Shown here: positions 3,789-36,824 of the stretch, one piece after another | How the letters are laid out: each line of letters opens with the position of its first letter | Numbering within the stretch: the first letter of the stretch is position 1 | Source: a virus | Strand: one strand, 5' to 3' | IMG/VR virus record: IMGVR_UViG_3300030463_000010 | Length of the DNA: 53,565 nt | Notes under the pieces: model-generated | The model's database searches: none | Told to the model about the DNA's origin: nothing | What the model saw: the letters and a program-made list of their open reading frames with translations, nothing else | Made by a program: the position numbers and the translations under genes

Positions 3789-3866
3789 GCCCTTGTAGCT
3801 CAGTAGGTAGAGCGGCCCAGGAATATGGGTGATTGAAGCGTCGCCGGTTCGAGTCCGGCCGGGGGC
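3789..3866 (+). tRNA. tRNA-like element with a non-canonical anticodon arm (6-nt loop GGAATA, 12-nt variable region)
   Basis: Acceptor GCCCTTG/CGGGGGC, D arm GCTC-AGTAGGTA-GAGC and T arm GCCGG-TTCGAGT-CCGGC are canonical. The anticodon stem GCCCA/TGGGT leaves only 6 loop nt. Confidence 0.5.
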
Positions 3867-4277
3867 TTGGCAACCCGCACCTTTCGCGGAGCCAATTTAA
3901 GCCGCCTCCTTGTGATGCCTCCCCACAATCCGGGGACAGGTAGTAACCTGGGGCAAACCGCAGGAATGCCTTTCGAGGCTGGCCCTGCAAAGCAGACCGC
4001 TCCAAAGGCCACGGAGCTGACACCCCGGAAAGACGGGGGCATGCGGAACATAGGCACCCCAAAAACGGGGAGGTCACAGCAAGCGAAGGGCACGCTGCTC
4101 TAAGTGCTAAAGCGGGGCAGGGCCGCGATGTTCCACCAGAGGCCGGGTCGCTCCCGGATGATCTGAGCGTAGCGCAATTCCTCAGAGAGAATGACAATGC
4201 CCGCTGAAAACTGCGCCAGAGTTCCGCAATCGGGGCCGATATACGGCGTGTGACAATTAAGCGGGAAGCGCACATAT

Positions 4278-4347
4278 ACGGGTGTAGCTCAATGGAGAGC
4301 GCCGGTCTCCAAAACCGGAGGTTGGGGGAACAGAGCCTTCCACCCGT
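4278..4347 (+). tRNA. tRNA-Trp(CCA)-like element with an aberrant T arm
   Basis: Acceptor ACGGGTG/CACCCGT is perfect, with D arm GCTC-AATGGA-GAGC and anticodon arm CCGGT-CTCCAAA-ACCGG. The T arm GGGGG-AACAGAG-CCTTC lacks the TTC motif. Confidence 0.55.
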
Positions 4348-4710
4348 GCCAGTGCCCTGCATGACAATGGTCTTGGTCCATATCACCTGAAAAGGCGATG
4401 GCGGCTTGCAACGCAGCGGGGCAATGATATGCCTCTCCTCGCCGCATGAGGCGGGCGGTGGCACCACGGCCCTCCCGTTTAGGGCGAAACGATATGCAGA
4501 TTGCGACGGCCTTATGGGCGAGGCGTTAATCACTGGAACGGCTTCCAGTGTCGCAAAAGCCGAAAACCATTGAGCGGTGGCGGAAAATGTAGACGCTTAC
4601 CGAGTAAGGCCATACTGGCGCCTGCGCCAGTCTCGACTGATTAGGCCATGTTAGGTGAAAATCCTCACCCGCTCAAATATGCCGCCCCGCAGTTGCGCGA
4701 GACGGGGACG

Positions 4711-28809: not shown

Positions 28810-30136
28810 CCATCTGGCGGTAACAATCCCCCTGAAAGATATCCAGCGCATCCAGCTCTGCATCAACACCGCTCGCCGGTCTCTCTCTCAAATTCAGAGG
28901 GAGACCGGGGCGGATTACATCCTCAACGGCACGCTCTACAACATGAGCACGTTTGTACCTAATTGCCACTTGAAAGCAGATGGGAAGGTACTCTGCAAAC
29001 CGGATTACACAGTCTCCGGCTACTCCTGGAATGATGGGCCGGACATTTCTATGAACACGCTGCCAGACGCCTCTCAGCGCAATTATATCACTTGCACACC
29101 GCTGATTGTTTCCGGAAAGCCACTCTCCAAATTGATCTATGACGAGGGGCAGGGCGGCAAACGGGGACGCTCTGCCATTGGCGTCAAGGGCGGCTCTCTG
29201 GCCCTGTACTGTACGAGGGACGGAGGGAGTATAACCCGGACGCCGGAATCGCTCAGGGACGATCTGACAGCGGCAGGATGGGATTCCGCAGTCATGCTGG
29301 ATGCCGGCGGCTCTAGCCAGTGTTATTTCAATGGAGCGGTCATCCAGAGCAGCAGGAACGTGCATGATTTGATTCTGGTCTATCTCAAGAAAGGGGAGAC
29401 AACTGTGGAAAAGAAAAAGGTGGTCCTGGACCCAGGCCATGATGCGGGAAACCTCGCCAACAAAAGCCCGGACGGAACCTATTATGAGCATGAGTTTGCC
29501 CTGGACATGGGGAAACGCATTCAGAGCATCCTGGAGCGGCATAGCGTTGCTGTCACCATGACCAGGACTGGCGGCGGGGAAGTCAGCCTTGCGCAGCGGT
29601 GTACGATTGCAAACGCCATCAAAGACCTGGATTTGTTCGTGAGCCTGCACAGCAACGCCGCTGGAGATGGAGGCTGGTCCTCTGCCTCCGGATGGAGCGC
29701 ATATGTCTACAAGACCAGCGGGAGCGGCTATAAGGCGGCAAAGGATATCCTGGAGGCCGTCAAAGACGCCGGAATTACTGTCAGGTCTACACCGATTGTG
29801 GCGGACCCGTCGCTGTATGTCTTGAAAGGCACCGTGGCTCCGGCTGTTCTGATCGAGCATGGCTTCCACACCAATCAAACAGACACCGCAAATCTCAAAA
29901 ATTCCGCATACCGGCAGAAACTGGCGGAAGCGGAAGCAAAGGGCGTCCTGAACTATTTGGGGATTGCCTGGAAGGAGGAAACTGTGGACAATCCTTCTGA
30001 AAGTGATCTGGCGGTCCAGTGGGTGCAGGAGAACGGCATTATGCTGGGCAACACGAACGGCGACATGATGCTGGACCAGCCCGTTACCCGCAGACAGTTT
30101 GCCGTGATGCTGTACAGGTATCACAATTTGAAGTAA
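28802..30136 (+). CDS. endolysin: phosphodiester-glycosidase-like (DUF2233) domain, N-acetylmuramoyl-L-alanine amidase, then an SLH-like C-terminus
   Basis: 444 aa from the ATG at 28802. Motifs: RSAIGVKGGSLALYCTRDG, MLDAGGSSQ; VVLDPGHDAGN...LFVSLHSNAAG...IEHGFHTN; C-terminal PVTRRQFAVMLYRY. Confidence 0.85.
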   Translation: MPDHLAVTIPLKDIQRIQLCINTARRSLSQIQRETGADYILNGTLYNMSTFVPNCHLKADGKVLCKPDYTVSGYSWNDGPDISMNTLPDASQRNYITCTPLIVSGKPLSKLIYDEGQGGKRGRSAIGVKGGSLALYCTRDGGSITRTPESLRDDLTAAGWDSAVMLDAGGSSQCYFNGAVIQSSRNVHDLILVYLKKGETTVEKKKVVLDPGHDAGNLANKSPDGTYYEHEFALDMGKRIQSILERHSVAVTMTRTGGGEVSLAQRCTIANAIKDLDLFVSLHSNAAGDGGWSSASGWSAYVYKTSGSGYKAAKDILEAVKDAGITVRSTPIVADPSLYVLKGTVAPAVLIEHGFHTNQTDTANLKNSAYRQKLAEAEAKGVLNYLGIAWKEETVDNPSESDLAVQWVQENGIMLGNTNGDMMLDQPVTRRQFAVMLYRYHNLK

Positions 30137-30150
30137 AAGGACGTGAACCA

Positions 30151-30396
30151 ATGAGCGCAAGAGTGAAATTACCACCACCGCTAGATAAACTCTTGCGCTC
30201 TCAAATGGAGACGGCTATTCGGGAAGCTAACCTGGGAAACGATGACACGGACATTGCTAAACGCTACTTGATTGATCAAATCCCGCAGATTGAGATTGCC
30301 GCGGAGTTTGGATGGGAGCGCTCTACGATCAGCCGCAGGATTTCAAGAATCCTTCTAAAAGTAGAAAACGCCGCAGATAAATTAAAATATTTTTGA
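30151..30396 (+). CDS. small sigma-70 region-4-like HTH protein (81 aa), candidate transcription regulator
   Basis: IAKRYLIDQIPQIEIAAEFGWERSTISRRISRILLKV. Confidence 0.6.
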   Translation: MSARVKLPPPLDKLLRSQMETAIREANLGNDDTDIAKRYLIDQIPQIEIAAEFGWERSTISRRISRILLKVENAADKLKYF

Positions 30397-30525: not shown

Positions 30526-30554
30526 TTGCATTTAATATTGGGAGATGATATGAT
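30526..30554 (+). promoter_or_regulatory. candidate promoter TTGCAT-17-TATGAT for the toxin-antitoxin pair
   Basis: Read directly; moderate match to consensus. Confidence 0.4.
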
Positions 30555-30604
30555 TGGCACAGGAGGAAGCCAGTATAATTAAAAGGAGGAAAGGGGGCAT
30601 TCAA

Positions 30605-30808
30605 ATGGCACTGTTGGCAGCACCTATTAAAACGGCCTTTCGAATTGATGCAAAAGACGCTAAAATACTAACACAAAAAACGGATGCTGTTCTGAACGCC
30701 TTTCGAAAGGTGAGGAAAGCAGAAGCTGAAAGCGGAGATACCGTGCGACTGGAACAGCTGGATGCGCAAATTCGCATATTACAAGAGGAATGTGATTCTG
30801 GCAAATGA
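30605..30808 (+). CDS. putative antitoxin (67 aa) of a GNAT-type toxin-antitoxin pair
   Basis: AAAGGAGGAAAGGGGG RBS. Its stop overlaps the downstream ATG (ATGA). Confidence 0.5.
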   Translation: MALLAAPIKTAFRIDAKDAKILTQKTDAVLNAFRKVRKAEAESGDTVRLEQLDAQIRILQEECDSGK

Positions 30809-31314
30809 TTTGTCTATCTGCGACATCAGATGACATCAGAGGGGTTTCCTTCAAATGTGGTCACAAAGAAATTGATAAGTATTTTGAAGAGAATTTGCTC
30901 ACAGATAGTGACGCTGTTTCCTATTGCTTCTGGGCGGATGCCGATAAGAAAGAGCTTATAGGGATAGCGTCATTATCATGCAGCGGTATTATAGTTCATT
31001 CCCGGACAAGGTTTAATATTACTCCAGCTATTGAAGTTAAGATTTTTGCTATAGATGAGAGGTATCAACACCAGGTTTTCTTAACAGATGAATCCGGAGA
31101 ACAACACTGGAGTGACTTGTGTCTATGCTATTTGATAATGGAGATATATAAAATTTCTGAGTCTGTATGCGGAGCAAGCCATGTTGTTTTATATTCTGTG
31201 CCAGAAGCTGTTTCATTTTACCAGCGAAACGGCTTTAATAAGTTTATAGGAGATATGGAGATGCCATCCAATATGTTTGTTGAAGGATGTACGCCCATGT
31301 TTCTGAATTTGTAG
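30805..31314 (+). CDS. GNAT-fold acetyltransferase, putative toxin (TacT/AtaT-like arrangement)
   Basis: 169 aa. FKCGHKEIDKYFEENL, IFAIDERYQ, AVSFYQRNGFNKF. The CoA-binding loop is divergent. Confidence 0.6.
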   Translation: MICLSATSDDIRGVSFKCGHKEIDKYFEENLLTDSDAVSYCFWADADKKELIGIASLSCSGIIVHSRTRFNITPAIEVKIFAIDERYQHQVFLTDESGEQHWSDLCLCYLIMEIYKISESVCGASHVVLYSVPEAVSFYQRNGFNKFIGDMEMPSNMFVEGCTPMFLNL

Positions 31315-31423
31315 ATTTCAAGTTAACTATCACATAACCTATATAGCCTTATCAGAAAAGGGAAGTGAGCCGTTTGTCACAACCAGACAGCTCATTATTC
31401 TTTTCACATAACTTCACACAACT

Positions 31424-31456
31424 CCCGCATGGATGCCACCCATGCGGGGATTTTTT
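31424..31456 (+). terminator. intrinsic terminator
   Basis: CCCGCATGG-ATGCCAC-CCATGCGGG followed by GATTTTTT. Confidence 0.8.
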
Positions 31457-31472
31457 ATGCGACAATAGAGAC

Positions 31473-31730
31473 ATGGAGGACGTGAGGATTCAAGGGCTGT
31501 ACACGTCGCAGTCCTCCTCACGGACTCCTTATTTTTGTTGCAAAGGACGTGTTATTTTGCTTGTGAATGGGTCTGAGCTTGTCAAGCGGCTGGTAGCCTG
31601 CGGATGGACCATATCCAACGCCGCTGACACCTGTTTTCAGTATGCGGCAGAGGGGAAATTTTCAGAATTGGAGGCGTTCATCCGGCAGCAGGAATTGTTG
31701 TTCGATGACCGGCGTGAATATGCGGTTTGA
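31473..31730 (+). CDS. hypothetical protein (85 aa; start uncertain)
   Basis: The track ORF 31365-31730 spans the terminator. The first ATG after it is 31473, with a weak RBS. Confidence 0.35.
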   Translation: MEDVRIQGLYTSQSSSRTPYFCCKGRVILLVNGSELVKRLVACGWTISNAADTCFQYAAEGKFSELEAFIRQQELLFDDRREYAV

Positions 31731-32085
31731 ATTTTACAACGAAAACCCAGCCGGACGTAATGTTGGGGATTGCACAGTCAGAGCGATTTCTAAAGCCCTG
31801 GGCCAAAGCTGGGACGCTACCTATTGGAATCTCTGTATTGAAGGAAACCTGCTCAAAGATATGCCGTCAAGCAACGCTGTTTGGGGAGCCTATCTGCGCA
31901 GGCAGGGCTTCGAGAGGGACATTGTCAGAGATGATATGTCTGTAGCGGATTTCGCAGCAGAGAACCCACATGGGACCTATATTCTTGCTCTGTCTGGCCA
32001 TGTGGTCTGTATCCAGGATTCTATTATATATGACACCTGGGACAGCGGGAATGAGATCGTTTTGTATTATTGGCAGAAGGAGTGA
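31720..32085 (+). CDS. putative papain-like cysteine peptidase/amidase fold protein (121 aa)
   Basis: NVGDCTVRAISKAL (candidate Cys) and LSGHVVCI (candidate His). Confidence 0.45.
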   Translation: MRFEFYNENPAGRNVGDCTVRAISKALGQSWDATYWNLCIEGNLLKDMPSSNAVWGAYLRRQGFERDIVRDDMSVADFAAENPHGTYILALSGHVVCIQDSIIYDTWDSGNEIVLYYWQKE

Positions 32086-32091
32086 CGTGAT

Positions 32092-32565
32092 ATGGCCTAT
32101 TATCCGCAGTATTACCCTCAGCAGCCCTATCCCTACCAGCCACCCATGATGGATAACCTTGCCCAGCTCCGGGCGGGGCAGTATCAGCAGCCGGTTCCCC
32201 CGCAGACGCCGCAGCCTATGCCGCAGCAGAGCGGTCAGAGCATGGTGTGGGTCAGCGGACAGGCGGAGGCTATGTCCTATCTGGTGGCTCCCAACAGTGC
32301 TGTTGCTTTATGGGACAGCAATGCGCCCACCATCTATCTCAAACAAGCGGACGCATCTGGTAAGCCCAGCATCAAAATTTATGATCTGGTGGAGCGCGGA
32401 AATACTGCGCAGACGGTCCAGGCGGCCCCTCAGACGCCCCACGTGCGCTATGCCACACAGGATGACTTGGAGGCACTTGCGGCCCGTGTAGACGCTCTGA
32501 GCGCGAAGGAGATGACTCAGGCGAGACCGACCAACAAAAAGCCTGCAAAGGAGGATGCTGAATGA
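32092..32565 (+). CDS. Tyr/Pro/Gln-rich N-terminus protein (157 aa), hypothetical
   Basis: MAYYPQYYPQQPYPYQPP..., then VWVSGQAEAMSYLVAPNSAVALWDSNAPTIYLKQADASGKPSIKIYDL. Confidence 0.65.
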   Translation: MAYYPQYYPQQPYPYQPPMMDNLAQLRAGQYQQPVPPQTPQPMPQQSGQSMVWVSGQAEAMSYLVAPNSAVALWDSNAPTIYLKQADASGKPSIKIYDLVERGNTAQTVQAAPQTPHVRYATQDDLEALAARVDALSAKEMTQARPTNKKPAKEDAE

Positions 32566-32783
32566 ATCCGTTTTTCAACGCTATGGGCGGAAATAAACAG
32601 CCCAACATGATGCAGCAGTTTCAGCAGTTTATGAACCAGATGAAGGGCAAAGACCCAAATGCAGTGATTCAGGACATGATGCAGTCCGGGAAAATCACCC
32701 AGGACCAATACAACCAGGCCCGCCAGCAGGCACAGCAGATGCAGGGCATGTTTGAGGGGATGCGGGGAATGTTCGGAAAGTAA
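32562..32783 (+). CDS. Met/Gln-rich small protein (73 aa), hypothetical
   Basis: ATGA overlap. NMMQQFQQFMNQMKGKDPNAVIQDMMQSGKITQDQYNQARQQAQQMQGMFEGMRGMF. Confidence 0.6.
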   Translation: MNPFFNAMGGNKQPNMMQQFQQFMNQMKGKDPNAVIQDMMQSGKITQDQYNQARQQAQQMQGMFEGMRGMFGK

Positions 32784-32822
32784 CCATTTCCAAACCAATT
32801 ATTAAACCAATTCAAACCATTT
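32782..32822 (+). repeat. four phased AACCA(A/T)TT repeats (about 10-12 bp period)
   Basis: Copies at 32782, 32793, 32805 and 32815, followed by the palindromic hairpin AAAATCCGTGGCCACGGTTTT (32827-32847). Confidence 0.7.
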
Positions 32823-32875
32823 AATCAAAATCCGTGGCCACGGTTTTGAAATAAATCTACAAAGGAGATTACATC

Positions 32876-33673
32876 ATGAGTCTTTCTTCTGACGGCGGCA
32901 CTGTTATGACAATGCCGGTTACTCCCGCTTATCAGGGCGGCGGTTATGGTGGCAATGGCTCCATGTGGGGTGGAGACTGGTCTGCCTGGATTATTTTGTT
33001 CCTCATTTGGGGAGCCTTTGGGGGCGGCTGGGGCAATGGCTTCGGCGGAGGTTTTGGCGGAGCAAACGGGCCTGGCTTCCAGGGTTATGCCACACGCTCC
33101 GACATTAACGAGGGCTTTGCTCTGAACAACCTCCAGAGCGGCATCAATTCCATCCAGAACGGAATCTGTGATAGTACCTACAGCCTGACCAACGCCATCA
33201 ACAATGGATTCCACGGTGTGGACACCGCCATGTGCAATCTGGGCACCCAGCTCCAGCAGTGCTGCTGCGACAACGCCCGGGCTATTGACGGCGTAAACTA
33301 CAACCTGGCAACCCAGACCAACGGCATTCAGACTGCCATTCAGGGCGTTCGGTATGATATGGCTACTCAGGCTTGCGACACCCGCAACACCATTCAGAAC
33401 AGCACGCGGGACATTATTGACAACGCCAACGCCAACAGCAGAGCCATTCTGGACTTCCTGACTCAGGACAAGATCGCCACGCTGACTGCTGAGAACCAGT
33501 CCCTGAAATTCCAGGCTTCTCAGGCGGCTCAGAATGCGTTCATTACTGCCAACCAGGAGGCGCAGACCGCCGAGCTGATTCGCCGCATCAATCCTATGCC
33601 CGTTCCGGCCTATCAGGTTCCGAACCCCTATGCCGGTTGTGGGTGCTATAGCTCCTGCGGTTGCGGCTGCTAA
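32876..33673 (+). CDS. Gly-rich, single-TM, N/Q-rich helical protein with a Cys-rich C-terminus (265 aa), hypothetical
   Basis: GGGYGGNGSMWGGDWSAWIILFLIWGAFGGGWGNGFGGGFGG (YjcZ-like composition), internal CCC, C-terminal GCGCYSSCGCGC. Confidence 0.7.
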   Translation: MSLSSDGGTVMTMPVTPAYQGGGYGGNGSMWGGDWSAWIILFLIWGAFGGGWGNGFGGGFGGANGPGFQGYATRSDINEGFALNNLQSGINSIQNGICDSTYSLTNAINNGFHGVDTAMCNLGTQLQQCCCDNARAIDGVNYNLATQTNGIQTAIQGVRYDMATQACDTRNTIQNSTRDIIDNANANSRAILDFLTQDKIATLTAENQSLKFQASQAAQNAFITANQEAQTAELIRRINPMPVPAYQVPNPYAGCGCYSSCGCGC

Positions 33674-33737
33674 AATCACATACATCAGCTTTCCGGCATG
33701 ATCGGAATGTTCGGCCCCGTGCCGATACTACAACAAC

Positions 33738-33770
33738 GCGGCGGGGCAATGGCTCCGCCGTATTCTTTTA
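33738..33770 (+). terminator. terminator-like hairpin
   Basis: CGGCGG (33739-33744) pairs with CCGCCG (33755-33760), followed by TATTCTTTT. Confidence 0.4.
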
Positions 33771-33788
33771 TGAGAAAGGATTGATTTT

Positions 33789-34211
33789 ATGGCTGAATTT
33801 ACAAATGTATTTGTTCAGCAGATCGCGGCTAATGGGAATGCAGTTTTCAGCGAAACGCCCGTTTCCGGCTCTAATTGTATTGTTCATCGGGATGGTTCTG
33901 GCATCATCACTCTGCGGGGGATGACGAATCAGTGCCGTGCCCGTTACAAGGTGGTATTTGGCGGGAATATTGCCATCCCGACTGGTGGGGCAGTGGGCCC
34001 CATCTCCGTCGCTATCGCCGTGGAGGGCGAGGCCCTTGGAAGTGCGACAGCTGTTGTGACGCCTGCGGCAGTCGAGGACTTTTTCAATGTATTCGCTGCC
34101 GCATTTATTGAGGTTCCCCGGGGCTGCTGTGTGACAGTGGCTGTCAAAAACACCTCCACTGAGACGATCGAGCTGGAAAATGCCAACGTGATCGTTGAGC
34201 GTGTATGCTGA
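33789..34211 (+). CDS. beta-rich, 5-Cys protein (140 aa); BclA-C-terminal/Ena-like jelly-roll suspected
   Basis: Alternating beta pattern ...IITLRG...YKVVFGGNIAI...ISVAIAVEGEAL...CCVTVAVKN...IVERVC. Similarity is judged by eye only. Confidence 0.6.
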   Translation: MAEFTNVFVQQIAANGNAVFSETPVSGSNCIVHRDGSGIITLRGMTNQCRARYKVVFGGNIAIPTGGAVGPISVAIAVEGEALGSATAVVTPAAVEDFFNVFAAAFIEVPRGCCVTVAVKNTSTETIELENANVIVERVC

Positions 34212-34225
34212 AAGGAGATAACAAA

Positions 34226-34645
34226 ATGAAAGCACTGTATGAGCTGAAAGAGAAGTTTGAGATGGAGCTGGAGGAACTAGCTCGGAAGGGAGAGTTGGGC
34301 GCCGGCGATTTGGAGCTGGCACACAAGCTCACCGACACCATCAAGAACATTGACAAAATCTGTGCTCTGGAGGAAGATGGTGGTTACTCCGAGGCAGGAG
34401 ACTGGGAAGGGCGCGGGTCTTACAATCGCGGTTCCAGCTATGCCAATCGCGGCAAGCACTACGTTCGGGGCCATTACTCCCGAGATGGTTACAGCAATCG
34501 CGGCTACAGCCGTGAAAGCGGTTACAGCCGACATGACGCAAAAGAGCAGATGATGGTCCAGTTGGAGGATATGATGGGCTCTGTGTCGAATGAGCGGGAG
34601 CGTGAGGCTATCCGCCGCTGCATGGAACAGCTGGACCGTGAGTAA
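34226..34645 (+). CDS. hypothetical protein with a central Arg/Gly/Tyr/Ser-rich disordered region (139 aa)
   Basis: AAAGGAGA RBS. ...GSYNRGSSYANRGKHYVRGHYSRDGYSNRGYSRESGYSRHD... Confidence 0.65.
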   Translation: MKALYELKEKFEMELEELARKGELGAGDLELAHKLTDTIKNIDKICALEEDGGYSEAGDWEGRGSYNRGSSYANRGKHYVRGHYSRDGYSNRGYSRESGYSRHDAKEQMMVQLEDMMGSVSNEREREAIRRCMEQLDRE

Positions 34646-34657
34646 GGGGGTGCCGCC

Positions 34658-35140
34658 ATGAATGGCACCAACGAAGCGCGGGAGGGCTCCCGAGAATGGC
34701 TCCTTTTAAAAATTGCGGAATGCATGGTTGAACCAATGAGCGAACGGACGGCAGAACGTTTAAGTACTTACAGCGGAGCGTACAACGCTATCTGCCAATG
34801 GGAAAACGGAAAACCTCCCGATTCCAATTCAGCTAAACCGTTCACCCAGGAAGAGGCGAAAGAGTGGACCAGCGCAATGCAGAATGTAGACGGCACTACC
34901 GGTCCACACTGGACGTTGGAACAAACCAACCAGATCATGACGCAGAGGGGAATCAACTGCGACCCATATCAATGGTGGGTAGCTATGAACATGGTCTATT
35001 CCGATTACAGTAAGGTTGCTAAGAAGCTCAATGTCAGCAACATCGACTTCTATGCCGAAATTGCGAAAGCGTTTCTGGATGATCAGGACGCCGCTCCCGA
35101 CAAGCTTGCTCGGTACTATGAGTTTGTCGTGAAGCACTGA
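34658..35140 (+). CDS. hypothetical protein (160 aa)
   Basis: AAGGGGG RBS. ...DGTTGPHWTLEQTNQIM...WWVAMNMVYSDY... Confidence 0.65.
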   Translation: MNGTNEAREGSREWLLLKIAECMVEPMSERTAERLSTYSGAYNAICQWENGKPPDSNSAKPFTQEEAKEWTSAMQNVDGTTGPHWTLEQTNQIMTQRGINCDPYQWWVAMNMVYSDYSKVAKKLNVSNIDFYAEIAKAFLDDQDAAPDKLARYYEFVVKH

Positions 35141-35177
35141 TGATAGTCCCCGCTCTCTCATGAGGGCGGGGATTATA

Positions 35178-35221
35178 TTACATAATATTACTGCAACTAC
35201 AGAGGAAGTAATATTAAGTAA
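35178..35221. other. candidate attP: 15-bp imperfect inverted arms around a 14-bp core
   Basis: TTACATAATATTACT-GCAACTACAGAGGA-AGTAATATTAAGTAA (1 mismatch between arms). Lies directly beside the 3' end of the integrase gene. Confidence 0.4.
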
Positions 35222-35241
35222 TAAACTTTTGGAAATTTTTT

Positions 35242-36582
35242 TCACACATTTAAGGAATATTCTATGTGCCTATCAGGGTATATTTTGATTTCTTTGACAA
35301 TAATTCTCCAAAATTCTCGTTTTTCTTCGCGGTTGAGTCCGTCGTAAGATTCTTTCCAGTTTTCGGTTAACACCCTATCAATACTCTCGAAGTCTTGCTT
35401 TTGCTCAGGGAGTGCTGCTTTCTCCAAATCACTGATTTTTGCAAGCAATGCTTCACGGTCTGTCTTTAATTCTTCTAGTGTGATGATATCATTCAAATAT
35501 AAATCCTTCAGTTTGTTTAACTTTGACTTTGCAGCAGAGATTTCCGCACGTGACCTTTTGTTGATTTCCGCATTTTTGAGAGCGGAAAAGTTGGCCTTGT
35601 ATTCGTGAAATTTGTTGGCTACTGTCGCAAGAAGATACTCTTCAATTTTCCTTTCACCAAGATTAACGCGATTTTGGCATCCATTCTGCTTTGTATAGTG
35701 TCCGTTGCAATTGTAGAACACATACGTCTGCTTTGTGTTAATACGAGCACCCATCCTGTTGCCGCACTCCGGGCAAACCACTAATCCGGAAAACAGATAG
35801 GTACGATTATTCTTTGCCTTTCGGACAACCTTCCTCCGCATAGCTTGAATTTGTTCATGATCTTCTTTAGTGATATAGGCAGGACACATTCCGTCCATAT
35901 TGTAATATTTCCCATAATATGTAGTGCTGCGCAGCATCTTATCAATAAGATGGTATCTCATTAAAACACCATATTTTTCTCTGATAAATTCGGAAGTTTT
36001 AGAAATGGAACCGGAGGCTAAATACTTCTTAAAGAAATCGTTAACAAGAGCCTCTTTGGATTCGTCTTTTTTGAATGATTTTCCTTCAATTTTATAACCA
36101 AAAGGTATATTCCCGGTAAGAGGCTCCAACCGCGCCCGCTTTCCCTCAAAAACGAATTTGATACGCTCACTGGTCCGGTCTGCTTCATCTTGGGCAACGG
36201 ACAACATGATATTTACTTTCAGCCGCCCGGATGCGGTTGTCGTCTCATAATCCTCTTGTGTCGCCTGCCAAGATACACCATATTGATCTAGGATTTCCTG
36301 AACAGCATAGTAGTTCCCCACATTTCTAAACCATCGGTCCAGTTTTATAAACAATATCAGATCAATTTTTCCAACCCTGCAATCATCCAGAAGTTTTAGG
36401 AGTGCAGGGCGTTTCTTATATGGTTTTCTGGCGGAGATGCCAGCATCTTCATAGATGCCGACAATCTTCATTCCATGGGATTTTGAAAATTGGGTCAGAC
36501 TATTTTTTTGGTCTTCCAGAGACAAGCCATGCCGGGCTTGTTCTTCTGTACTAACCCTTATATATAATGCAGCTCGTTGCAT
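35242..36582 (-). CDS. int: large serine recombinase (integrase)
   Basis: 446 aa from the ATG at 36582 (AGGAGGTGGAG RBS). AALYIRVSTEEQ..., recombinase domain, zinc ribbon CPECGNRM...YNCNGHY, coiled coil. Confidence 0.9.
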   Translation of the reverse strand: MQRAALYIRVSTEEQARHGLSLEDQKNSLTQFSKSHGMKIVGIYEDAGISARKPYKKRPALLKLLDDCRVGKIDLILFIKLDRWFRNVGNYYAVQEILDQYGVSWQATQEDYETTTASGRLKVNIMLSVAQDEADRTSERIKFVFEGKRARLEPLTGNIPFGYKIEGKSFKKDESKEALVNDFFKKYLASGSISKTSEFIREKYGVLMRYHLIDKMLRSTTYYGKYYNMDGMCPAYITKEDHEQIQAMRRKVVRKAKNNRTYLFSGLVVCPECGNRMGARINTKQTYVFYNCNGHYTKQNGCQNRVNLGERKIEEYLLATVANKFHEYKANFSALKNAEINKRSRAEISAAKSKLNKLKDLYLNDIITLEELKTDREALLAKISDLEKAALPEQKQDFESIDRVLTENWKESYDGLNREEKREFWRIIVKEIKIYPDRHIEYSLNV

Positions 36583-36824
36583 AGCTCCACCTCCTAAGAT
36601 CACGCCGCCAGGTGATTCCTGACGGCGGCTTTTCACTAGAATGAAAACCTATCGTAAAAAGTAAAATTGTGGTATAAAAATAAAGACCACTAGATATAGG
36701 TCAATACAAAATATAAATGGAAAAAATTGTGAAAATCTGCTGATTGCCTTATATTATCCTCGGTGCTATGATATTATCAAATCACTAGAACAAATGTTCT
36801 TGAACGAGGAGGGGCAACTGGAAT

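What the first reader, a model, noticed from the sequence alone, without database searches (positions are those of the whole stretch)
31473..35140. Cargo operon of Cys-, Gly-, Tyr/Pro/Gln- and Arg/Gly/Tyr-rich proteins beside attP: possible cross-linked surface or spore-associated assemblage
Seen in sequence: seven co-oriented genes fill the classical lysogenic-conversion slot between lysis/TA and attP-int. From 31720 onward their products are:
- a 121-aa protein with papain-like Cys/His candidates (GDCTVRA, SGHVV);
- a 157-aa protein opening with YYPQYYPQQPYPYQPP;
- a 73-aa Met/Gln-rich protein;
- a 265-aa protein with a Gly-rich block plus a single hydrophobic helix (GGGYGGNG...WSAWIILFLIWGAFGGGWGNGFGGGFGG), an internal CCC and the C-terminus GCGCYSSCGCGC;
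- a 140-aa beta-rich protein with five cysteines, including the C-terminal residue;
- a 139-aa protein with a GSYNRGSSYANRGKHYVRGHYSRDGYSNRGYSRESGYSR tract;
- a 160-aa protein.

Four phased AACCA(A/T)TT repeats (32782-32822) and internal terminator-like hairpins subdivide the cluster.

Established knowledge: Gly-rich plus hydrophobic peptides of this composition resemble YjcZ-family sporulation proteins. Tyr-rich and Cys-rich proteins are typical of cross-linked spore coats. BclA C-terminal and Ena (DUF3992) subunits are small jelly-roll proteins, and Ena fibres are disulfide-linked.

Inference (speculative, from by-eye resemblance only): the phage may deliver a self-assembling, covalently cross-linked extracellular or spore-surface structure. 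I know of no described phage system like this.
Basis: partly seen in the sequence, partly recalled or inferred. Interest (0 to 1): 0.75.

Follow-up and report, generated by a model that had tools for sequence, protein, structure and literature searches.

The report
Lysis-linked phage cassette with BclA-like protein
The seven odd-composition genes are real and form a very common, uncharacterised cassette of gut Clostridia phages that always follows the lysis genes, starts with an orphan structured RNA (RAGATH-31) and includes a BclA/TNF-fold protein, but it is not tied to spores.

Summary

Homologues occur in thousands of gut-metagenome phages. The order is fixed: holin, endolysin, small sigma-70-region-4-like HTH, terminator, RAGATH-31 RNA, small ORF u, then A-B-C-D-E-F(-G).

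**Supported**
- E (33789-34211) is a stand-alone BclA-C/TNF/C1q jelly roll.
- A has an invariant Cys/His/Asp set on a compact fold that resembles papain only weakly.
- The cassette lies about 60 nt from the serine-integrase attP.

**Not supported**
- YjcZ, Ena/DUF3992 or exosporium-leader membership.
- Any link to spores. Butyrivibrio phage Ceridwen has been seen only in the lytic cycle, and it infects a host that to my knowledge does not form spores. It carries the same genes after its lysin.

**New**
- A second conserved three-hairpin RNA sits between D and E.
- The GNAT pair is an insertion at a hot spot.
- The E slot is swapped for an unrelated Cys-rich protein in a sister cassette, where the F-type tract and DUF7841 (G) are fused in one protein.

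**Best reading (low confidence)**
This is a separately regulated, lysis-coupled operon that builds a D-centred multiprotein complex with an exchangeable head. Function remains untested.

The parts
30151..30396 (+). x81: an 81-aa sigma-70-region-4/KorA-like HTH protein. It is the conserved first gene of the cassette, directly after the endolysin.
   Evidence: It is present after the lysin in most of the 80 related loci. Pfam matches to Sigma70_r4 and KORA fall below their cut-offs. It matches PHROG 'sigma factor' phrog_3512 at 8.5e-6. In the L061 clade it is replaced by a 107-aa protein that passes Pfam Sigma70_r4 (33.1 bits, cut-off 24.1).
30554..31314 (+). An 84-aa ORF plus a 169-aa GNAT-like ORF. 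This is an insertion at a hot spot, not part of the conserved cassette.
   Evidence: Among the 80 related IMG/VR loci it is present only in L008. Most relatives have x81 and the RNA about 280-325 nt apart, and others carry different inserts there, such as a SocA_Panacea pair. G+C is 0.435-0.45 against 0.52-0.55 for the cassette. It matches PHROG acetyltransferase at 8e-11.
31423..31449 (+). Intrinsic terminator that insulates the cassette from upstream transcription.
   Evidence: The stem has 10 pairs and is followed by a T-run. The stem varies with compensatory changes among relatives (alignment).
31475..31537 (+). RAGATH-31 RNA hairpin (31475-31528), followed by the U-tract UUAUUUUU.
   Evidence: Rfam RF03101 scores 71.5 bits against a gathering score of 71.8, E 6e-15, over the full model 1-54. 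12 of the 13 related IMG/VR and metagenome loci scanned pass gathering at 76-84 bits. The motif is present in 76 of 89 loci, 156-192 nt upstream of A with one exception at 1786 nt, where there is an insertion. The fold has a z-score of -5.4.
31557..31730 (+). Small ORF u, about 57 aa. The TTG start is uncertain. It overlaps the start of A by 11 nt.
   Evidence: The conserved core, LVxRLVACG...YAAEGxFxxLE, is seen in 63 loci. An AAAGGA ribosome-binding site lies upstream.
31720..32085 (+). A: a 121-aa compact Cys/His/Asp protein that weakly resembles a papain or C39 fold.
   Evidence: The AF2 model has pLDDT 95.7. Cys18 sits at a helix N-terminus, His94 and Asp105 on adjacent strands, and all three are invariant in 50 sequences. 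The best Foldseek matches are Josephin, staphopain and the ComA C39 domain, with E 0.09-0.3. It matches phrog_3754 at 1e-31. Homologues stand alone in Bacillus Tsamsa-like phages and in Geobacillus phage GBK2, and matches also occur in Lak megaphages.
32092..32565 (+). B: 157 aa, with a Pro/Gln/Tyr-rich N-terminus, a conserved domain of about 50 aa, a short coiled coil, and a charged tail.
   Evidence: It matches phrog_21718 at 3.7e-38. The conserved core is W53...D75 S76...Y82 K84 D87 G90 P92. There is no Pfam or PDB relative.
32562..32783 (+). C: a 73-aa Met/Gln-rich helical protein.
   Evidence: It matches phrog_22984 at 5e-35. Composition is given. One public record names it DUF2680, but it has no Pfam hit above threshold.
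32782..32848 (+). Four AACCAWTT repeats (32782-32822), followed by a conserved palindromic hairpin, CAAAAUCCGUGGCCACGGUUUUG (32826-32848), just before the ribosome-binding site of D.
   Evidence: The repeats are shown and are restricted to one lineage. The palindrome is conserved in nearly all loci and covaries, CCGTGG/CCACGG against CCCGG/CCGGG.
32876..33673 (+). D: 265 aa. It has an N-terminal MSLSxD..MPVxPAY motif, a Gly/Trp-rich hydrophobic segment, an Asn/Gln/Thr-rich helical rod of about 190 aa with an invariant CCC, a PxPAY motif, and a Cys-rich tail.
   Evidence: It matches phrog_16490 at 4.8e-81. The alignment shows invariant CCC, P242/P244/A245/Y246 and block indels of 11-30 residues. 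In the sample seeded on the RAGATH-31 core, a D homologue follows the RNA in nearly every locus that extends far enough. There is no significant PDB relative.
33674..33771 (+). Conserved three-hairpin RNA between D and E: P1 33691-33707, P2 33711-33725, and terminator P3 33738-33761 with a U-run.
   Evidence: All 6 pairs of P1 show compensatory changes in 14 distinct sequences, and 97.9% of cells are paired against 30-48% for slid controls. P2 is invariant. There is no Rfam match. The fold has a z-score of -3.2.
33789..34211 (+). E: a 140-aa stand-alone BclA-C/TNF/C1q-type jelly roll.
   Evidence: The AF2 model has pLDDT 82.7 and is all-beta. Foldseek against the PDB finds 4-1BBL, EDA, the F-BclA C-terminal domain 9h38 and ExsF 9h3d. 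Against BFVD it finds stand-alone phage proteins at TMq 0.77-0.86. The family has 648 clusters at 50% identity, nearly all 135-150 aa. 4 of 48 members hit BclA_C. Alleles are shuffled relative to D.
34226..34645 (+). F: 139 aa, made of a helical N-terminus, an Arg/Gly/Tyr/Ser low-complexity tract, and a helical C-terminus.
   Evidence: It is conserved in 76 loci. It matches phrog_28802 at 1.9e-11. In the sister cassette an R/Y/D/G-rich tract is fused to DUF7841 in one 264-aa protein.
34658..35140 (+). G: 160 aa, with a DUF7841 domain.
   Evidence: Pfam PF25223 scores 2.5e-35. It is present in about a quarter of relatives. Many others, for example L061, L086-L088 and Ceridwen, carry a 108-113-aa protein after F instead.
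35148..35171 (+). Terminal hairpin, CCCCGC...GCGGGG, that closes the cassette.
   Evidence: The sequence is shown. It is conserved in the integrated prophage copy L003.
35178..35225 (.). attP region, an imperfect inverted repeat ACATAATATTACT / AGTAATATTAAGT. Identity with the integrated prophage ends at about 35200-35206.
   Evidence: This comes from an alignment of the window, the integrated prophage L003 and the circular relative L009. The serine integrase lies at 35242-36636 on the minus strand.

Best explanation
The region is the main body of a conserved, self-contained accessory operon that travels welded to the holin-endolysin genes of phages of gut and rumen Clostridia.

**Shown**
- The order is fixed: sigma-r4-like HTH, terminator, RAGATH-31 hairpin with U-tract, u, A, B, C, palindromic hairpin, D, three-hairpin attenuator-like RNA, E, F, G.
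- The unit is inherited as a block across phages with different integrases, lysins and virion types.
- No product has an N-terminal signal-peptide-like hydrophobic start.
- E has a BclA-C/TNF fold.
- The position after D is exchangeable, taking different E alleles or the unrelated Cys-rich protein E'.
- In the sister cassette, an F-type low-complexity tract and DUF7841 occur as one fused protein.

**Inferred**
- The HTH protein and the two terminator-bearing RNAs gate and grade transcription, so that u-A-B-C-D and E-F-G are made in set ratios.
- D forms a rod, probably trimeric. It would be held by its Gly/Trp-rich hydrophobic N-terminus and knotted by its Cys-rich tail.
- The E trimer docks on D as a variable binding head, possibly on the duplicated MPVxPAY/PxPAY peptides, as ExsF binds exosporium leader peptides.
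- B, C and F supply low-complexity partners.
- A, where present, trims or cross-links them.
- Nothing can be exported by the Sec pathway, and the operon sits behind the lysis genes even in a phage known only as lytic. The complex is therefore made inside the productively infected or induced cell and reaches the outside only through phage lysis. It is not a spore structure.
For: - Synteny is the same in 80 IMG/VR loci, 9 metagenome, genome and annotated-phage loci, and Ceridwen, at 28-100% protein identity.
- D and E always co-occur where the contig allows it.
- Starting from the RNA, a D homologue follows RAGATH-31 in nearly every locus that extends far enough.
- The RNAs are supported by Rfam scores and by covariation.
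- A regulator sits at the head of the cassette in both arrangements.
- The fold of E is supported.
- E alleles are mosaic. D at 66-69% identity pairs with E at 46%, 59%, 85% or 90% (L043, L049, L029, L053).
- E is replaced by a non-homologous E'. F and G are linked by a fusion protein.
- N-termini and hydropathy show no signal-peptide-like starts.
- Ceridwen is lytic, and it has the HTH, u and A-F but no integrase next to the cassette (PMC7372960).
- A phage with a P22-type portal carries the cassette.
- G+C content matches the late genes.
- ExsF is known to bind peptides at its trimer clefts (PMC12357932).
Against: - There are no expression, localisation or interaction data.
- The upstream terminator and the closing hairpin give the unit a moron-like, insulated architecture. 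This would equally fit expression from the prophage.
- 29 of 52 testable relatives have an integrase right behind it. Ceridwen could be a virulent derivative of a temperate phage, since it keeps XRE and antirepressor genes.
- No consensus sigma-70 promoter was found inside the unit.
- A occurs alone in early regions of unrelated phages and is missing from the sister cassette. It may therefore not belong to the same machine.
- The hydrophobic segment of D is too weak to call a transmembrane helix.
- Trimer formation and D-E docking are untested.
- In strict anaerobes the Cys clusters may bind metal rather than form disulfides.
Confidence: 0.33

Rival explanations
1. This is lysogenic-conversion cargo expressed from the prophage, in the mother cell. 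It builds a covalently cross-linked spore-coat, exosporium or appendage-like layer. E would act like ExsF or the BclA head, and the Cys-, Tyr- and Gly-rich proteins would form the matrix.
For: - E has the BclA-C/TNF fold, and ExsF is among its matches.
- The lack of signal peptides also fits mother-cell assembly.
- The unit is insulated by terminators and lies beside attP.
- Most carriers are temperate.
- Composition resembles coat proteins, with Cys clusters and Tyr/Gly/Gln-rich tracts.
Against: - There are no YjcZ, DUF3992 or exosporium-leader matches.
- The cassette is present in a lytic phage of Butyrivibrio fibrisolvens (PMC7372960). That host does not sporulate (my knowledge).
- By eye I saw no match to sporulation-sigma promoter consensus sequences upstream of A, D or E (sequences). 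No formal scan was run.
- TNF/C1q domains are also common in phage fibres.
- The resemblance in composition is not homology.
Confidence: 0.1
2. These are virion accessory parts. D would be a fibre shaft and E, or E', an exchangeable receptor-binding tip or decoration. B, C, F and G would be assembly factors, encoded outside the main tail module.
For: - In viral structure libraries the TNF/C1q fold sits at the tips of tail fibres and spikes.
- Allelic shuffling and replacement at the E slot is typical of host-range determinants.
- D is rod-like, with block indels.
- The cassette is retained in a lytic phage.
Against: - It has its own regulator, an upstream terminator and an internal terminator. 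These are unusual for structural genes that must be co-expressed with the late operon.
- The same cassette occurs in sipho-like and P22-portal genomes with unrelated tail modules.
- The hydrophobic Gly-rich N-terminus, Cys clusters and low-complexity proteins are untypical of fibres.
- The phages already carry ordinary distal tail genes.
Confidence: 0.15
3. This is superinfection exclusion or receptor masking. D and E would be made in the lysogen, or early in infection, at the membrane or envelope. There they would block entry of related phages, or coat receptors on debris.
For: - It lies next to attP-int, where exclusion genes often sit.
- D has a hydrophobic N-terminus.
- The E slot is diversifying.
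- The TNF-fold superfamily includes lectins (PMC12914763, abstract).
Against: - Eight to nine conserved genes is far more than known exclusion systems need.
- E has no export signal.
- There are no matches in PADLOC.
- No promoter evidence was found.
Confidence: 0.12
4. There is no joint machine. The unit is a string of independent small accessory genes, for host takeover or anti-defence, kept in order only by linkage and shared regulation.
For: - A homologues occur alone among early genes of GBK2 and Tsamsa-like phages.
- A is absent from the sister cassette.
- G is optional.
- The weak fold neighbours of A include deubiquitinase-type proteases.
Against: - The order u-A-B-C-D-E-F is preserved down to 28-46% identity in Ceridwen.
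- B, C and D homologues, or look-alikes, recur together in the sister cassette.
- The F-G fusion and strict D-E co-occurrence argue for functional coupling.
Confidence: 0.15

Closest known systems
ExsFA/BxpB and the BclA / F-BclA C-terminal domains of the Bacillus cereus-group exosporium (Pfam BclA_C, TNF/C1q superfamily)
   Same: E has the same jelly-roll fold (TMq 0.61-0.67 to 9h38 and 9h3d). Like ExsF, it is a stand-alone protein of about 140 aa with no signal peptide. Some family members hit BclA_C.
   Different: - The window protein itself has no Pfam hit.
- There is no collagen-like stalk and no exosporium leader.
- It is encoded by phages, including one of a host that to my knowledge does not sporulate.
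- Sequence identity to the solved proteins is only 10-17%.
Sigma-factor plus holin-dependent release loci of Clostridia: C. difficile PaLoc (tcdR, tcdE) and C. perfringens uviAB-bcn. This comparison is from my own knowledge and was not tested here.
   Same: A small sigma-type regulator and phage-type lysis genes sit beside genes for proteins that lack signal peptides and can leave the cell only through holin or lysis.
   Different: - The regulator here has only a region-4-like HTH of 81-107 aa, not a full TcdR-family sigma factor.
- The products are small structural or low-complexity proteins, not toxins.
- The locus is inside functional phages.
Phage morons or lysogenic-conversion cassettes between the lysis genes and attP
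   Same: The position is the same, the unit is flanked by terminators, and it lies next to the integrase.
   Different: - G+C content matches the phage late genes.
- It is conserved as an 8-9-gene block across many phage lineages and in a lytic phage.
- The true moron here is the GNAT pair, inserted inside the cassette.
C1q/TNF-like distal domains of phage tail fibres and spikes, and the Sf6 tail-needle knob on a coiled-coil needle. The Sf6 example is from my own knowledge.
   Same: A TNF-type head next to a gene for a long helical rod, with an exchangeable head.
   Different: - Head and rod are separate polypeptides.
- The rod has a hydrophobic Gly/Trp N-terminus and Cys clusters.
- The genes lie outside the tail module and have their own regulation.
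RAGATH RNA motifs (Rfam RF03101, RAGATH-31)
   Same: The leader hairpin matches the full 54-nt model.
   Different: The function of RAGATH-31 is unknown. Of the RAGATH set, only three ribozyme classes and RAGATH-18 (a TnpB guide scaffold) have been explained (PMC11061315). Here it looks like a terminator-type leader of one specific operon. To my knowledge that association has not been described.

Membership tests
BclA_C / TNF-C1q superfamily (protein E) | Match to Pfam PF18573 (BclA_C) | tested here: inconclusive
   The window protein has no hit at E<=1. 4 of 48 diverse family members hit BclA_C, best E 7.3e-7. A profile of the family finds no PDB sequence.
BclA_C / TNF-C1q superfamily (protein E) | Ten-strand jelly-roll fold superposable on solved TNF or BclA-C domains | tested here: met
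   The model has pLDDT 82.7. 45 PDB matches have E<=1e-3, nearly all TNF-family ligands, the F-BclA C-terminal domain, ExsF or C1q-like proteins, and the best of these have TMq 0.5-0.73.
BclA_C / TNF-C1q superfamily (protein E) | Homotrimer | not testable with these tools
   No multimer prediction is available.
BclA proper (collagen-like exosporium glycoprotein) | N-terminal exosporium leader and a collagen-like GXX stalk before the head | tested here: not met
   E is 140 aa and all head. The best 150 family representatives are 70-205 aa. There is no TIGR03720 or other NCBIfam hit.
Ena endospore appendage subunits (DUF3992) | Pfam DUF3992 match, or Ena1 fold with an N-terminal Cys connector | tested here: not met
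   E and 48 relatives have no DUF3992 hit. No Ena structure is among the top 50 PDB fold matches. E', the Cys-rich substitute in the sister cassette, has no Pfam hit either. Its fold could not be tested.
YjcZ-family sporulation proteins (N-terminus of D) | Match to the NCBIfam or Pfam model | tested here: not met
   There is no hit for full-length D at E<=1, nor for five N-terminal fragments at E<=10. HMMER's composition filter may hide weak matches.
Papain-like (clan CA) cysteine peptidase or transglutaminase fold (protein A) | Cys at a helix N-terminus with His and Asp/Asn on following strands, all conserved | tested here: met
   Cys18 lies at the start of helix 18-27, His94 before strand 95-99, and Asp105 at the end of strand 102-105. 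All three are invariant in 50 sequences. Inter-residue distances were not measured.
Papain-like (clan CA) cysteine peptidase or transglutaminase fold (protein A) | Significant sequence or fold match to a known family | tested here: inconclusive
   There is no Pfam, NCBIfam or PDB-sequence hit. The best Foldseek E-value is 0.088. Josephin, staphopain and ComA-C39 score TMq 0.40-0.49.
RAGATH-31 RNA (RF03101) | Covariance-model score at or above the gathering score | tested here: inconclusive
   The window copy scores 71.5 against 71.8 bits over the full model. Copies at the same position in 12 of the 13 related IMG/VR and metagenome loci scanned score 76-84 bits, so the window copy is the same element.
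Moron or lysogenic-conversion cassette | Own promoter and terminator, deviating base composition, restricted to temperate phages | tested here: inconclusive
   Terminators are present. No consensus promoter was found. G+C is 0.52-0.55, like the late genes. The cassette is also present in lytic Ceridwen.
Spanin or class-I fusion-protein-like membrane fusogen (protein D) | Transmembrane or fusion peptide plus coiled coil, with detectable homology | tested here: not met
   Only non-significant profile matches to influenza HA2 were found, E 0.8-2.5. Hydropathy is marginal. The known hosts are, to my knowledge, monoderm.
Known anti-phage defence systems | Match to a PADLOC model | tested here: not met
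   None of 10 proteins has a hit at E<=0.1.

The most novel reading that the evidence does not exclude
Thousands of phages of gut and rumen Clostridia carry a dedicated operon, gated by the orphan RNA RAGATH-31 and a second unnamed attenuator RNA. It would build a lysis-released, or envelope-attached, fibrous structure: a Cys-knotted coiled-coil stalk (D) carrying an exchangeable head (the BclA/TNF-fold E, or the unrelated E'), embedded in prion-like Q/P/Y-, M/Q- and R/G/Y-rich proteins. In effect this would be a phage-made analogue of the exosporium nap, working outside sporulation, for example to stick progeny, debris or cells together or to gut glycans.
Probability: 0.15. Interest if true: 0.8.

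Novelty: new variant of a known kind. Interest (0 to 1): 0.6.

Why it matters
- **Abundance.** The exact E protein is on at least 1000 public contigs, and the D and E families each have thousands of 90%-identity clusters. Yet every protein-coding part is filed as function unknown.
- **A defined unit for experiments.** The work gives boundaries, a regulator, two RNA elements, an insertion hot spot and an exchangeable slot. It also identifies a cultured system, Butyrivibrio phage Ceridwen, in which deletions and virion or lysate proteomics are feasible.
- **Context for RAGATH-31.** It gives the first concrete genetic context for RAGATH-31, one of the RAGATH motifs whose function is unknown.
- **BclA-C/TNF fold outside spores.** It shows that stand-alone BclA-C/TNF-fold proteins are widespread in phages of Clostridia, and that one of them sits in a phage of a host that to my knowledge does not form spores. 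This cautions against reading such domains as spore markers.
- **If the proteins do form a released or surface structure.** It would be a new way for gut phages to shape aggregation, adhesion or persistence.

Tried and rejected
**Searches with no usable result**
- Pfam, NCBIfam, PHROG and PADLOC scans of all cassette proteins. Only DUF7841 (G) and function-unknown PHROGs were found.
- YjcZ and exosporium-leader searches, including fragments of D: nothing.
- PDB sequence and profile searches for A, B, D, E, G and E': nothing significant. The HA2-like match of D (E about 1) is treated as compositional resemblance only.
- Foldseek of the A model: no significant match.
- The genome-contig scan with E as a single sequence returned one unnamed MAG, so it gave no host taxonomy. 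The host name comes instead from a cluster member of B.
- Megablast of the structural half of the window against deposited phages found only tRNA-sized matches.
- Sigma-70 promoter scan: no more sites than in shuffles, and none convincing inside the cassette.
- Literature: nothing on DUF7841 or RAGATH-31. The paper I expected to describe the RAGATH motifs, and the supplements of a related 2017 survey, were not available. Whether Hydrogeniiclostridium sporulates could not be settled.

**Ideas considered and dropped**
- Spanin-like lysis function for D. The hosts are, to my knowledge, monoderm, and five genes and an RNA separate D from the lysin.
- Disulfide cross-linking as a given. The hosts are strict anaerobes.
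- A as a dedicated component of the cassette. It occurs alone elsewhere and is missing from the sister cassette.
- E' as a diverged E. hhalign probability is 0.9%.

Full report
**1. Observation**

The seven + strand ORFs are present exactly as described.
- A is at 31720-32085, B at 32092-32565 and C at 32562-32783.
- D is at 32876-33673 and E at 33789-34211.
- F is at 34226-34645 and G at 34658-35140.

The quoted motifs, cysteine counts and compositions all check out.

All but A have good ribosome-binding sites. A overlaps a small upstream ORF by 11 nt.

A-F each match a PHROG family of unknown function (F only weakly), and G matches Pfam DUF7841 at 2.5e-35.

The genes are real. A has 2143 homologous 90%-identity clusters, D at least 8000 and E 6412. 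All come from gut-type metagenomes and none has a functional name. The exact E sequence occurs on at least 1000 contigs.

The four AACCAWTT repeats start at 32782, 32793, 32805 and 32815. Terminator-like hairpins lie at 31423-31449, 33738-33761 and 35148-35171.

**2. Setting**

The window is a whole temperate phage genome. It contains a terminase, portal, a 1293-aa tape measure, a holin, a NAGPA+Amidase_3 endolysin, a serine integrase at 35242-36636 on the minus strand, and a repressor region.

I compared the window with an integrated copy whose cassette abuts host RNase Y (L003). Identity ends at about 35200-35206, inside an imperfect inverted repeat. attP is therefore about 60 nt beyond the stop codon of G.

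A 90%-identity cluster mate of B is annotated in Hydrogeniiclostridium mannosilyticum, family Acutalibacteraceae.

**3. The unit is larger and more structured than the finding**

I examined 80 IMG/VR loci found with D, plus 9 metagenome, genome and annotated-phage loci.

The order there is always lysin, an HTH protein of about 81 aa (window 30151-30396), small ORF u, then A-B-C-D-E-F. G is present in about a quarter.

The HTH protein is sigma-70-region-4/KorA-like, below Pfam cut-offs but with a PHROG 'sigma factor' match at 8.5e-6. In a clade that lacks it, a 107-aa protein that passes Pfam Sigma70_r4 sits in the same place.

The window's 84-aa ORF and GNAT-like ORF (30554-31314) are absent from most relatives. 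There the HTH gene and the RNA are only about 280-325 nt apart. Other relatives carry different inserts at this spot, so it is an insertion hot spot. The low G+C of the insert (0.435-0.45) contrasts with the cassette (0.52-0.55). The cassette matches the phage late genes.

**4. RNA elements**

- It matches Rfam RF03101 (RAGATH-31) over the whole 54-nt model, at 71.5 bits against a gathering score of 71.8, E 6e-15.
- Copies at the same position in 12 of the 13 related IMG/VR and metagenome loci scanned score 76-84 bits.
- The hairpin sits 156-192 nt upstream of A in 75 of the 76 loci (of 89) that carry it. In the other locus an insertion moves it to 1786 nt.
- It follows a canonical, covarying terminator and is itself followed by UUAUUUUU and the ribosome-binding site of u.
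- Most RAGATH motifs, including this one, have no known function (PMC11061315).

*Search from the RNA side.* Searching IMG/VR for the RNA core returned 125 loci. A D homologue follows the RNA in nearly every locus that extends far enough.

*D-E element.* A second element fills the D-E spacer (33674-33771).
- Hairpin P1 shows compensatory changes at all six pairs in 14 distinct sequences. Overall, 97.9% of cells are paired against 30-48% in slid controls.
- P2 (UCGGCCCCGUGCCGA) is invariant.
- P3 is a terminator.
- There is no Rfam match.
- GCCCCG in P2 is complementary to CGGGGC in the 5' arm of P3. An antiterminator alternative is therefore possible. This is inference.

*C-D palindrome.* A conserved, covarying palindrome precedes D at 32826-32848. 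The AACCAWTT repeats occur only in one sub-lineage.

**5. Proteins**

*E.*
- The AF2 model (pLDDT 82.7, pTM 0.79) is an all-beta jelly roll.
- Its solved neighbours are TNF-family ligands, the F-BclA C-terminal domain of B. thuringiensis (9h38, TMq 0.61-0.67, E about 1e-5), ExsF (9h3d) and C1q-like domains.
- In the viral library the best matches are stand-alone phage proteins of about 135 aa (TMq 0.77-0.86). Beyond those come the C-terminal tips of much longer proteins, several annotated as C1q-domain, collagen-like or tail-fibre proteins.
- The family has 648 clusters at 50% identity, nearly all 135-150 aa and with no collagen stalk.
- 4 of 48 diverse members hit Pfam BclA_C, best E 7.3e-7, although the window protein does not.
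- There is no DUF3992/Ena signal.

*A.*
- The model is very confident (pLDDT 95.7).
- Invariant Cys18 lies at a helix N-terminus, and His94 and Asp105 lie on adjacent strands.
- Fold matches are not significant (best E 0.088). The better ones are papain-like enzymes: Josephin, staphopain, ComA-C39, MCF and TssM.
- A homologues occur alone among early genes of Geobacillus phage GBK2 and Bacillus Tsamsa-like phages, and matches also occur in Lak megaphages.

*D.*
- It has a conserved N-terminal MSLSxD..MPVxPAY motif.
- A Gly/Trp-rich hydrophobic segment follows. Its Kyte-Doolittle score of 1.26 is marginal for a membrane helix.
- Next comes an Asn/Gln/Thr-rich helical region with an invariant CCC and block indels.
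- It ends with a second PxPAY motif and a Cys-rich tail.
- It has no YjcZ match, even as fragments, and no significant solved relative.

*B, C and F.* These are low-complexity proteins with no relatives of known function.

*Signal peptides and defence models.* No product has a signal-peptide-like N-terminus. None matches a defence-system model.

**6. Variation that constrains function**

- E and F alleles are shuffled against D. D at 66-69% identity to the window pairs with E at 46%, 59%, 85% or 90%.
- A sister cassette behind the same RNA has this order: u, a B homologue (phrog_21718, 3e-5), a Met/Gln-rich C-like protein, D (phrog_16490), an unrelated Cys-rich 142-aa protein E', and a single 264-aa protein that joins an R/Y/D/G-rich tract to DUF7841.
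- E' aligns to the E family with hhalign probability 0.9%.
- That cassette has no A.
- So D is the constant core, the following slot is exchangeable, the F-type tract and DUF7841 are functionally linked, and A is dispensable.

**7. Lifestyle and host**

- Integrases of several tyrosine types, or serine type, lie 0.5-0.9 kb beyond F in 29 of 52 loci that have enough downstream sequence. Many other contigs end just after the cassette, or run into host genes as in L003, L086 and L088, as expected for a prophage end.
- The cassette also occurs in a genome with a P22-type portal. There it is followed by a 1637-aa LPD3 protein and no integrase.
- It also occurs in Butyrivibrio virus Ceridwen. The order there is lysin, holin-like ORF, HTH, terminator, u, A, B, C, D, E, an inserted 264-aa gene, F and a 108-aa gene. 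Identity to the window proteins is 28-46%.
- Ceridwen was isolated on B. fibrisolvens DSM 3071, was seen only in the lytic cycle, and its authors judged it virulent (PMC7372960).
- Butyrivibrio does not form spores (my knowledge).
- Ceridwen lacks RAGATH-31.

**8. Interpretation**

Solid results:
- This is a conserved, separately regulated operon attached to the lysis genes of Clostridia phages.
- It contains a BclA-C/TNF-fold protein and is headed by RAGATH-31.

My preferred mechanism, at about one-third confidence:
- The products assemble around D, with E or E' as a variable head and B, C and F as low-complexity partners.
- They are made in the productively infected or induced cell.
- They become external only through lysis, because none can be exported and the operon is kept even by a phage known only as lytic.

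Alternatives that remain open:
- a virion-fibre model;
- an exclusion or receptor-masking model;
- a model in which the genes are independent of one another.

**9. Novelty and limits**

Every component family is either a known superfamily (TNF/C1q, sigma-r4 HTH, RAGATH-31, and more tentatively papain-like for A) or an unnamed PHROG.

What is new is the definition of the cassette, its RNA elements, the exchangeable slot, and the association between the RNA and the operon. I found no description of these in the searchable literature.

Limits:
- No expression, localisation, interaction or activity data exist.

Noticed in passing
window 31475-31537 (+): Rfam motif RAGATH-31 (function unknown), followed by a U-tract. 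It forms the leader of the cassette. In the related loci examined, a D homologue follows it in nearly every locus that extends far enough. To my knowledge this RNA-operon association is undescribed.
   Followed up: yes
window 33674-33771 (+): Conserved three-hairpin RNA between D and E, with no Rfam match. P1 has compensatory changes at all 6 pairs, P2 is invariant, and P3 is a terminator. The P2 sequence GCCCCG could pair with the 5' arm of P3, giving a possible antiterminator.
   Followed up: partly
window 32826-32848 (+): Palindromic hairpin CAAAAUCCGUGGCCACGGUUUUG, directly before the ribosome-binding site of D. It is conserved and covaries in nearly all relatives. It could be an operator or a bidirectional terminator-like element.
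   Followed up: partly
window 30554-31314 (+): An 84-aa ORF plus a GNAT-like 169-aa ORF with low G+C. The pair is an insertion between the HTH gene and RAGATH-31. Relatives carry other inserts at the same spot, for example a SocA_Panacea pair on the opposite strand, so this is a hot spot for morons or toxin-antitoxin-like genes.
   Followed up: partly
L129 7678-8106 and 8119-8913 (sister cassette): An unrelated Cys-rich 142-aa protein (phrog_31654) occupies the E position. A single 264-aa protein fuses an Arg/Tyr/Asp/Gly-rich tract to DUF7841. This links the window's F and G functionally. The fold of E' is unknown.
   Followed up: partly
window 3789-3867 and 4278-4348 (+): Two tRNA genes sit between the terminase and portal genes. 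ARAGORN calls only the first, with an undetermined anticodon. The second resembles phage tRNA-Trp genes.
   Followed up: no
window 35178-35225: attP of the serine integrase. It is an imperfect inverted repeat, ACATAATATTACT / AGTAATATTAAGT. Identity with an integrated copy ends at about 35200-35206. In that copy the prophage end is followed by an Amidase_3+SH3_3 gene and then host RNase Y.
   Followed up: partly
window 30136-30151, 31540-31557 and 31475-31488: The string (A/G)GGACGUG recurs three times: upstream of the HTH gene, upstream of ORF u, and as the 5' arm of RAGATH-31. The hairpin loop carries the complementary CACGUC. This may be a shared recognition or pairing element.
   Followed up: no
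L090 7518-8312 (Butyrivibrio virus Ceridwen): A 264-aa gene with a weak C-terminal HTH_17 match is inserted between E and F of the Ceridwen cassette. This shows a second insertion-tolerant point.
   Followed up: no
L091 (Geobacillus phage GBK2) 4992-5381; L092 (Bacillus phage Tsamsa) 3980-4375: Homologues of A (37-39% identity, with the same NPNP...DC..RA and H..(T/C)...D.WD motifs) stand alone among small early-region genes. This suggests a general phage function for this small Cys/His/Asp protein family.
   Followed up: partly
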